IMG/VR virus record: IMGVR_UViG_3300037312_000330
Span: 64,001-128,000 of that record
Direction: 5' to 3' (one strand)
DNA from: a virus
Lineage: Duplodnaviria > Caudoviricetes
DNA: 64,000 nucleotides
Shown here: piece by piece, positions 21,927-22,034 of the stretch
How positions within the stretch are numbered: the first letter of the stretch is position 1
Layout of the letters: each line of letters starts with the position of its first letter
The notes under the pieces: generated by a model
Told to the model about the DNA's origin: nothing
Database searches by the model: none
What the model saw: the letters and a program-made list of their open reading frames with translations, nothing else
Program-made: the position numbers and the translations under genes

Positions 21927-22034
21927 CTATACAACTCGAGACGCTGGTTCGATTCCAGCCCCGCGATCCAAAGCGCATTCCAAAGAGTGTTCTTTGGTCG
22001 CGGGTAGCTTAGCGGTAGAGCGTGAGTCTATACA
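21927..22034 (+). ncRNA. Circularly permuted tRNA-like module 2 (opened at the anticodon loop)
   Basis: CTATACA-ACTCG-AGAC-T arm-CCCGCGA-T-CCA-linker-TCGCGGG-TA-D arm-G-TGAGT-CTATACA. Confidence 0.85.

What the first reader, a model, noticed from the sequence alone, without database searches (positions are those of the whole stretch)
21927..22034. Circularly permuted tRNA gene with its anticodon loop duplicated at both ends
Seen: the 3' half (ACTCG, AGAC, T arm GCTGG-TTCGATT-CCAGC, CCCGCGA, T, CCA) lies upstream of the 5' half (TCGCGGG, TA, D arm GCTT-AGCGGTA-GAGC, G, TGAGT), joined by a hairpin linker. The same heptamer CTATACA precedes the 3' half (21927-33) and follows the 5' half (22028-34). 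Joining within the repeat and opening at the linker gives a canonical 74-nt cloverleaf with anticodon ATA, an atypical C37, U73 and encoded CCA. Established: permuted tRNA genes are known from some algae and an archaeon. Bacterial YrlA Y RNAs are tRNA mimics with this T arm, capped acceptor, D arm order, normally beside Ro60/TROVE and RtcB genes, and none is visible in this window. Inference: this is either a phage permuted tRNA matured through a circular intermediate, or an anticodon-nuclease decoy or Y-like RNA of a new type.
Basis: partly seen in the sequence, partly recalled or inferred. Interest (0 to 1): 0.92.

Follow-up and report, generated by a model that had tools for sequence, protein, structure and literature searches.

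The report
Permuted tRNA mimic beside DUF7873 gene
This jumbo phage really does encode a tRNA-shaped RNA with its two halves in swapped order, but it has no conserved anticodon loop. It is one of a conserved pair of tRNA mimics that almost always follow an uncharacterised gene (DUF7873) in phages and bacteria, a gene-RNA pairing I could not find described in print.

Summary
Joining the halves through one CTATACA copy gives a 74-nt cloverleaf that ARAGORN calls tRNA-Tyr(ata). It is module B of a tandem pair; module A lies at 21707-21819. Both sit directly after a DUF7873 gene in a 249-kb phiRSL1-like jumbo phage.

The arrangement recurs:
- It is present in all 32 related viral loci examined.
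- It is present in 63 of 80 metagenome loci; 15 of the 17 without a strong match are contigs with under 420 nt after the gene.
- It is present in Ralstonia phage phiRSL1, in an unannotated gap.
- It is present in the Calothrix chromosome.

All 21 base pairs show compensatory change in 53 independent sequences.

The "duplicated anticodon loop" is not conserved. The nearest relative has a 94% identical module but lacks the upstream heptamer. The genome encodes no RtcB, Rnl1/2, CCA-adding enzyme or Ro60.

My reading is a non-decoding tRNA mimic with YrlA-like architecture that fails the YrlA, permuted-tmRNA and permuted-tRNA membership tests. It probably works with DUF7873. RNase P may cut its linker. 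No transcript data exist.

This scan has met the same RNA before: 41 earlier findings in at least 32 genomes.

The parts
20883..21659 (+). DUF7873 gene (258 aa), the constant neighbour of the RNA pair
   Evidence: Pfam PF25283, 224.5 bits. The AF2 model has pLDDT 89.6 and no known fold match. The invariant DKHPAQVK motif sits at a beta-hairpin tip. The gene is followed by the modules in viral, metagenome and Calothrix loci.
21680..21854 (+). Domain A including its outer helix (TTTGGC 21680-21685 pairs with GCCAAA 21849-21854)
   Evidence: RNAalifold on five close relatives predicts the outer helix, with three pair types at its middle position.
21707..21819 (+). Module A, a permuted class-II-like tRNA mimic opened at the variable arm. 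Its elements are: GGGGC; GATT; T arm 21716-21732; acceptor 21733-21741 paired with 21769-21777 and capped by linker 21742-21768; TG; D arm 21780-21797; hairpin 21799-21814; GCCCC 21815-21819. It has no CCA.
   Evidence: Sequence, fold, RNAalifold covariation and R1 at 33.3 bits. Homologous first modules occur in most loci.
21927..21933 (+). Upstream CTATACA heptamer
   Evidence: Sequence. It is partly homologous to ACTACAC(A/G) in L052 and L081, absent in L132/L133, and not a conserved repeat.
21934..22027 (+). Module B (the finding), a permuted class-I tRNA mimic. Its elements are: closing stem ACTCG/TGAGT; 4-nt variable region; T arm; 7-bp acceptor; U73-CCA; linker; D arm.
   Evidence: It is 93.9% identical to L132, while the neighbouring DUF7873 DNA is 74% identical.
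21971..21997 (+). Linker hairpin capping the acceptor stem (AAG C GCATTC CAAA GAGTGT T CTTTGG). C74-A76 plus AAG pair with CTTTGG.
   Evidence: MFE and centroid fold. Both linker helices covary in relatives, including position 76 (A-U, G-C, U-A). The loop letters match conserved positions of the beta_tmRNA intervening sequence.
22028..22034 (+). Downstream CTATACA heptamer
   Evidence: Sequence. It aligns to TCTATGT in L132.

Best explanation
The element is module B of a two-module, non-decoding tRNA-mimic RNA. This RNA belongs to an apparently undescribed family that is genetically tied to the DUF7873 protein gene.

Shown:
- Four covarying helices reproduce a tRNA body (acceptor, T arm, D arm and an anticodon-stem equivalent), with the tertiary-contact letters kept (U8, A14, G18, G19, T54, T55, C56, A58).
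- The acceptor ends are joined by a linker.
- The anticodon loop is missing.
- The RNA pair sits next to DUF7873 in phages and bacteria.

Inferred:
- The pair is transcribed with DUF7873; no promoter-like or terminator-like site was found between them.
- It folds into an L-shaped tRNA look-alike and is recognised by tRNA-binding factors.
- DUF7873 is the likeliest dedicated partner, by direct binding or processing. I put this at about 0.45.
- RNase P may cut between the linker and the acceptor 5' strand, and the 3' side may be trimmed to CCA. That would give a nicked two-piece molecule, as shown for Mycobacterium smegmatis YrlA and for two-piece tmRNA. For this phage I put this at about 0.35, because here the CCA is buried in a covarying linker helix.

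It is not a gene for a decoding tRNA.
For: - Anatomy and fold.
- Covariation: alignment A2 and the independent alignment A6 (93.7% paired, 21/21 pairs compensatory, score 0.881 against 0.228 shuffled and at most 0.17 when slid).
- Closing stem: at least 5 bp in 77% of 75 non-redundant modules against 11% of shuffles, with tRNA-like spacing of 4-5 nt plus 1 nt.
- RNAalifold, given no structure, recovers both modules in five close relatives.
- Synteny with DUF7873: 32 viral loci; 63 of 80 metagenome loci, where 15 of the 17 without a strong match are contigs with under 420 nt after the gene; phiRSL1 in an unannotated 484-bp gap; and the Calothrix chromosome between unrelated genes.
- Selection: the B core is 93.9% identical to L132, against 74% for DUF7873 DNA.
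- Processing precedent: M. smegmatis YrlA, with a 7-bp acceptor, is cut by RNase P and receives CCA (PMC4201824). Permuted tmRNA transcripts are cleaved by tRNA-processing enzymes (PMC11915505).
- NCCA directly follows the acceptor in 41 of 76 B-type modules, against 1.6% expected by chance. CCA-bearing linkers are never shorter than 9 nt.
Against: - No transcript, end-mapping, binding or processing datum exists. No RNA run was listed for this phage or for phiRSL1.
- The DUF7873 model matches no known fold, so nothing independently marks it as RNA-binding.
- An earlier check within this scan priced the protein-RNA unit claim at only 22/100.
- In this clade position 76 covaries as a base pair and close relatives carry CCT, CCG or CCC instead of CCA. 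This weakens the case for a free CCA end here.
- The abutting 7-mer repeat is improbable by chance (8e-5) and remains unexplained.
- Part of the acceptor and T-arm pairing statistic is circular for the first set, because my scan demanded pairing there. Alignment A6 is fitted to the model.
Confidence: 0.62

Rival explanations
1. Two-piece chargeable tRNA-like RNA. RNase P and 3' trimming open the linker. The nicked molecule carries a free CCA, is aminoacylated, and acts as an amino-acid carrier or as a tag-less tmRNA-like competitor on ribosomes or on SmpB/EF-Tu.
For: - The module has a 7-bp acceptor, a T arm and U73-CCA.
- NCCA is enriched 30-fold or more over chance across the family.
- There is a partial beta_tmRNA match that includes the intervening-sequence letters.
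- Precedents exist in M. smegmatis YrlA (PMC4201824) and in a tag-less tmRNA-like RNA of phage DS6A that inhibits host tmRNA (PMC11915505).
- Module A has a Leu-type D arm, and A73 in 19 of 30 cases. LeuRS needs no anticodon (from my own knowledge, not tested).
Against: - The discriminator and the first acceptor pairs vary freely in B-type modules (G 29, T 26, C 11, A 10; 65 distinct stems), so no conserved charging identity exists.
- 3:70 is G:C, not the G:U needed for alanine.
- ARAGORN finds no tmRNA and RF04321 does not match.
- About half of the family has no CCA, and some members have 5-8 nt caps.
- In this clade the CCA position is base-paired and variable.
Confidence: 0.12
2. Decoy or sponge for host tRNA-directed factors (defence nucleases, toxins or modification enzymes that read the acceptor, T arm or elbow). 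It would act without DUF7873 and protect the phage's own tRNA cluster just downstream.
For: - It sits at the head of a cluster of 13-14 phage tRNA genes.
- The tRNA tertiary-contact letters are conserved.
- Phages are known to counter tRNA-targeting defences (from my own knowledge).
Against: - The same cassette stands alone in a cyanobacterial chromosome between unrelated genes, with no tRNA cluster nearby.
- The near-obligate link to DUF7873 is left unexplained.
- There is no anticodon loop, so it cannot bait anticodon nucleases.
Confidence: 0.12
3. Cis-acting 3'-UTR element. The tRNA-like folds would serve only as RNase P/Z punctuation or as exonuclease blocks that set the level of DUF7873 mRNA.
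For: - The modules lie directly after the gene on the same strand, with no predicted promoter or terminator between.
- tRNA-like punctuation is known elsewhere (from my own knowledge).
Against: - In several loci the module lies upstream of the gene instead (L061-63, L097, L100, L102, L105).
- Two different, elaborately conserved modules with full tertiary-contact sets are more than a processing site needs.
- The B core is more conserved than the gene it would serve.
Confidence: 0.08
4. True circularly permuted tRNA gene. The transcript is cut within both CTATACA copies, circularised, and opened at the linker to give a decoding tRNA with anticodon AUA.
For: - The de-permuted sequence is a 74-nt cloverleaf by ARAGORN.
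- The abutting 7-mer repeat is unlikely by chance.
- CCA is encoded.
- Three of four related jumbo phages encode RtcB.
Against: - The repeat is absent in L132/L133, whose module is 94% identical, and in every other homologue.
- No RtcB, Rnl1, Rnl2 or CCA-adding enzyme is encoded in this complete genome.
- A34 with C37 is atypical for bacterial decoding tRNAs (established knowledge).
- TATA within the heptamer is self-complementary, so the two copies can equally extend the helix.
- Many relatives extend the closing stem into an outer helix.
Confidence: 0.03

Closest known systems
YrlA, bacterial and phage Y RNA-like RNAs bound by Ro60/Rsr (Rfam RF02553; Chen et al. 2014, PMC4201824)
   Same: The module order is the same: T arm, loop-capped acceptor stem, D arm, closed by a stem in place of the anticodon arm. 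The tRNA tertiary-contact letters are kept. Y RNAs also occur in tandem beside one protein gene. The M. smegmatis member has a 7-bp acceptor, is cut by RNase P and gains CCA.
   Different: - No Ro60/TROVE gene is present in this genome or in four related complete phage genomes.
- There is no GNCGAAN0-1G motif.
- The score is 29.3 bits against a threshold of 69.
- The partner gene is DUF7873.
- Module A is opened at the variable arm and keeps an anticodon-arm-like hairpin.
Two-piece (circularly permuted) tmRNA genes (Rfam RF01850, RF04321; PMC11915505)
   Same: The gene order is T arm, acceptor 3' strand, CCA, intervening sequence, acceptor 5' strand. The tmRNA transcript is cut by tRNA-processing enzymes into two base-paired pieces. 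The loop letters of the window's linker match the conserved letters of the beta_tmRNA intervening sequence.
   Different: - There is no tag reading frame and there are no pseudoknots (ARAGORN).
- The D arm is full, not degenerate.
- 3:70 is G:C.
- RF01850 matches only positions 86-150 at 39.8 bits against 84, and RF04321 gives no match.
Circularly permuted tRNA genes of Cyanidioschyzon merolae and other algae, and of an archaeon (reviewed in PMC3978253, listed; details from my own knowledge)
   Same: The 3' half is encoded upstream of the 5' half, the two are joined by a linker, and CCA can be encoded.
   Different: Those genes yield complete decoding tRNAs through a circular intermediate made by a splicing endonuclease and a ligase. 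Here no anticodon loop is conserved, no ligase is encoded, and the family spans bacteria and phages, which lack that pathway.

Membership tests
YrlA (RF02553) | tRNA-like domain in the order T arm, capped acceptor-like stem, D arm | tested here: met
YrlA (RF02553) | Reaches Rfam's gathering score (69 bits) | tested here: not met
   29.3 bits, model positions 18-91 only. A tandem tRNA junction scores 24.1 bits as a control.
YrlA (RF02553) | Encoded within about 4 kb of a Ro60/TROVE gene on the same strand (PMC4201824) | tested here: not met
   No TROVE match in the complete 248,884-bp genome or in four related complete phage genomes.
YrlA (RF02553) | GNCGAAN0-1G Ro60-binding motif near the 5' end | tested here: not met
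   No match in 21650-22100.
YrlA (RF02553) | Bound by Ro60/Rsr | not testable with these tools
   Needs immunoprecipitation. The host is unknown.
Circularly permuted tRNA gene | The 3' half lies upstream of the 5' half and the acceptor strands are complementary | tested here: met
Circularly permuted tRNA gene | The junction restores a functional anticodon loop, conserved among relatives | tested here: not met
   The loop can be built only in this genome. The repeat is absent in L132/L133 and in all other homologues. A34 and C37 are atypical.
Circularly permuted tRNA gene | RNA ligase available for circularisation | tested here: not met
   No RtcB, Rnl2 or Rnl1 in the phage genome. The Rnl1 control rang nowhere, so that one search is weak. 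A host ligase cannot be excluded.
Two-piece tmRNA (RF01850 / RF04321) | Reaches the gathering score | tested here: not met
   RF01850 gives 39.8 bits against 84, covering the tRNA-like domain only. RF04321 gives no match on the module.
Two-piece tmRNA (RF01850 / RF04321) | Tag reading frame, pseudoknots and G3:U70 | tested here: not met
   ARAGORN reports no tmRNA. 3:70 is G:C.
DUF7873-associated tandem tRNA-mimic RNA (no published name; defined by this scan) | Lies beside a DUF7873 gene on the same strand | tested here: met
   Module A starts 48 nt after the stop codon and module B 275 nt after it. The same holds in 32 viral loci, 63 metagenome loci, phiRSL1 and Calothrix.
DUF7873-associated tandem tRNA-mimic RNA (no published name; defined by this scan) | Two different permuted modules in tandem (class-II-like, then class-I-like) with covarying helices | tested here: met

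The most novel reading that the evidence does not exclude
DUF7873 and the tandem tRNA-mimic RNA form a Ro60-independent ribonucleoprotein class spread through phages and many bacteria. In it, module B is nicked by RNase P to expose a CCA end. The particle would use tRNA mimicry to engage the tRNA or translation machinery, or to guard the tRNA pool during phage-host conflict.
Probability: 0.3. Interest if true: 0.85.

Novelty: new variant of a known kind. Interest (0 to 1): 0.7.

Why it matters
The family is a structured RNA with overwhelming covariation. It is absent from Rfam. It is tied to a protein family with thousands of members: 3,250 proteins were scored at E <= 1e-5 in one search, and all 75 cultured phage records that carry the gene call it "hypothetical".

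Bacterial tRNA mimics of this shape were known only as partners of Ro60. A second protein partner would show that tRNA-shaped scaffolds are a more general device. Cultured systems are available for testing:
- Ralstonia phage phiRSL1
- Klebsiella jumbo phages
- Gordonia, Rhizobium and Vibrio phages
- Calothrix

For genome annotation, the result explains a conserved "empty" gap in phiRSL1-like phages. It also warns that such loci can be mistaken for permuted tRNA or tmRNA genes.

Tried and rejected
- DNA similarity of 21600-22250 to cultured phages found no match.
- DUF7873 against PADLOC, PHROGs and PDB sequences gave nothing.
- Foldseek against PDB, AFDB clusters and Swiss-Prot gave only uncharacterised relatives or noise.
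- The protein-atlas feature search gave scores of 0.81, which is uninformative.
- Expression: no RNA run was listed for this phage or for phiRSL1.
- Literature searches for DUF7873, for permuted tRNA with phage, and for tRNA-like RNA in jumbo phages found no description.
- Burroughs and Aravind 2016 could not be read.
- MAFFT and the R1 model misalign the closing stem because the variable region differs in length. I therefore measured that stem with my own script against shuffled flanks.
- Other R1 and YrlA matches in the genome are junctions of tandem tRNA genes, not modules.
- One helix enclosing both modules was not predicted in close relatives.
- A tag reading frame downstream of B was considered (ASVDTQLVM*). 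I rejected it because there is no tmRNA call, no G3:U70 and no conservation.

Full report
**Observation**

- CTATACA, 21927-21933
- ACTCG-AGAC
- T arm, 21943-21959
- acceptor 3' strand CCCGCGA, 21960-21966
- U73 and CCA, 21967-21970
- a 27-nt linker
- acceptor 5' strand TCGCGGG, 21998-22004
- TA
- D arm, 22007-22021
- G
- TGAGT, 22023-22027
- CTATACA, 22028-22034

ARAGORN and Rfam see 13-14 ordinary tRNA genes downstream but nothing here in genomic order. When I join the 5' half, one heptamer and the 3' half, ARAGORN calls a 74-nt tRNA-Tyr(ata). The strand folds better than shuffles (z = -3.9), with the T arm and an acceptor-plus-linker hairpin in the centroid structure. A permissive Rfam scan gives two partial matches. 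One is to beta_tmRNA, covering only the tRNA-like domain of that permuted gene (39.8 bits, threshold 84). The other is to YrlA (29.3 bits, threshold 69).

**Context**

The window is part of a complete 248,884-bp virus record. The element lies between a DUF7873 gene (20883-21659) and a GroES gene (22225-22518), at the head of the phage's tRNA cluster.

A second permuted module lies upstream at 21707-21819. It has a T arm, a 9-bp capped acceptor, a class-II-like D arm, an anticodon-arm-like hairpin with a 6-nt loop, and a closing stem GGGGC/GCCCC. It is therefore opened at the variable arm. The closest cultured relative is Ralstonia phage phiRSL1. There the DUF7873 homologue is ORF270, and the modules fall in an unannotated 484-bp gap.

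**Comparative evidence**

I anchored on DUF7873 and fetched 32 viral loci with 29-54% protein identity. A simple scan found one or two permuted modules just after the gene in nearly all of them. The scan looked for a T arm, then seven bases, then their complement within 130 nt. The acceptor, T-arm, D-arm and closing stems all differed between loci.

A covariance model built from 23 of these (R1) was then run on material it had not seen:
- The Calothrix brevissima chromosome gave two hits of 41.8 and 41.6 bits directly after its DUF7873 gene, between an RTX lipase gene and a SnoaL gene.
- Of 80 metagenome loci, 63 scored at least 40 bits.
- Of the 17 that did not, 15 are contigs with under 420 nt after the gene. 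The other two (L055, L056) keep module A but have only a 3' half of the second module.

On 53 distinct independent sequences the results were as follows:
- 93.7% of cells form pairs.
- All 21 pairs show compensatory change.
- The covariation score is 0.881, against 0.228 for shuffles and at most 0.17 for slid partners.

This alignment is fitted to the model, so it leans towards it. RNAalifold, given no structure, recovers the same helices in five close relatives.

The closing stem is misaligned by MAFFT. Measured separately, it is at least 5 bp in 77% of 75 non-redundant modules against 11% of shuffles, and its spacing is tRNA-like. U8, A14, G18, G19 and the T-loop letters are invariant or nearly so.

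Between the window and its nearest relative (L132, DUF7873 protein 76% identical) the identities are:

| Region | Identity |
|---|---|
| B core | 93.9% |
| DUF7873 DNA | 74% |
| GroES DNA | 66% |
| Module A core | 66% |

**The "duplicated anticodon loop"**

An abutting 7-mer repeat has a chance probability of about 8e-5, so it is not trivially dismissed. It is not conserved, however:
- L132 and L133 carry the same module but have CACTGAA upstream and TCTATGT downstream.
- Other clade members have only a loose ACTAY motif upstream and unrelated sequence or an extra hairpin downstream.
- More distant loci extend the closing stem to 6-8 bp and often continue into an outer helix across an internal loop.

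The core TATA is self-complementary, so the two copies could simply pair with each other. A34 with C37 would also be odd for a decoding tRNA. The genome has no RtcB, Rnl2, Rnl1 or CCA-adding enzyme. Three of four related jumbo phages do have RtcB. The circular-intermediate reading therefore lacks support.

**The CCA**

Across the family, NCCA directly follows the 7-bp acceptor in 41 of 76 B-type and 9 of 30 A-type modules, where chance would give 1.6%. Linkers with CCA are never shorter than 9 nt, whereas CCA-less linkers include 5-8 nt caps. This argues that many members expose or present a CCA.

There is published precedent. M. smegmatis YrlA, with a 7-bp acceptor, is cut by RNase P and gains CCA (PMC4201824). 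Permuted tmRNA transcripts are cut by tRNA-processing enzymes (PMC11915505).

In the window's own clade the picture is different. The linker is a covarying two-helix hairpin and position 76 pairs (A-U, G-C, U-A), so relatives carry CCT, CCG or CCC. Whether this particular module is nicked is therefore open.

The discriminator and acceptor pairs vary freely, and 3:70 is G:C. A conserved charging identity is therefore unlikely.

**Membership**

The architecture matches YrlA, but three defining features fail:
- There is no Ro60/TROVE gene here or in four related complete genomes.
- There is no GNCGAAN0-1G motif.
- The score is far below threshold.

It is not a permuted tmRNA either. There is no tag frame or tmRNA call, and RF04321 does not match. 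The linker's loop letters do coincide with the conserved letters of the beta_tmRNA intervening sequence. Other modules score only 23-34 bits on the same partial model, so this is a lead rather than a finding.

**DUF7873**

The AF2 model is confident (pLDDT 89.6). The invariant DKHPAQVK motif sits at the tip of a long beta-hairpin. The model matches no known fold or solved sequence. A physical partnership with the RNA therefore rests on synteny alone.

**Standing in this scan and in print**

The scan has met this RNA before: 41 findings in at least 32 genomes. Follow-up reports reached the same reading, and a later check priced the protein-RNA unit claim at 22/100. I found no paper that describes it.

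**Verdict**

The permuted-tRNA maturation reading is not supported. The "new Y-like RNA" reading is supported at the level of architecture and genetic linkage. The mechanism remains inferred.

Noticed in passing
window 26244-26344: Rfam calls a 101-nt tRNA (45.3 bits) that ARAGORN misses. It has a normal acceptor, D arm, T arm and GCCA, but an irregular anticodon region and a long extra arm.
   Followed up: partly
window 22134-22179: A long hairpin (GATCTCTCTCTTAAT...ATTAAGAGAGATC) whose cap GCATTTCAGACAGTGC resembles the GCATTC...GAGTG caps of both module linkers. The hairpin is conserved in L132, L052, L134 and L135 just upstream of GroES.
   Followed up: partly
window 21971-21997 and 21742-21768: The linker loop letters (AAG.GCAUUC....GAG.GU.UU) coincide with the conserved letters of the intervening sequence in Rfam's betaproteobacterial two-piece tmRNA model. 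phiRSL1-like phages infect Betaproteobacteria. This could be shared ancestry or a shared processing signal.
   Followed up: partly
window 21932-22029 against L132 2555-2669: The B core is 93.9% identical, while DUF7873 third codon positions are 54% identical and module A is 66% identical. Either every base is constrained or the module was exchanged recently between lineages. The window also has a private 29-nt insertion (hairpin 21900-21924) just upstream.
   Followed up: partly
L061-L063, L097, L100, L102, L105: In these metagenome loci the strong module lies 140-290 nt upstream of DUF7873 instead of downstream, on the same strand.
   Followed up: no
L006 3483-3890 (also L055, L056): This lineage keeps module A (GCCA plus a linker of about 150 nt). 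At the second position it has only a T arm plus an acceptor 3' strand, with no matching 5' half.
   Followed up: partly
G003 170667-171800; G002 40946-42115; G005 143003-144133: Three of four related complete jumbo phages encode RtcB. In G003 it lies about 4 kb downstream of the modules on the same strand. This window's genome has none.
   Followed up: no
window 22050-22125: The block CAGTGTAGAC...GACCGGAG...TTGGG(T/C)ATAAA is conserved in all close relatives after module B. It is probably the promoter region of the GroES and tRNA cluster unit.
   Followed up: no
window 23096-23611 and 26393-27091: A bacterial-like globin gene and a QueC-like gene sit inside and at the end of the phage tRNA cluster.
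   Followed up: no
window 18595-19267: Other first-reader notes propose a free-standing group I ribozyme here. The Rfam search of the whole window at gathering threshold reported only tRNAs.
   Followed up: no
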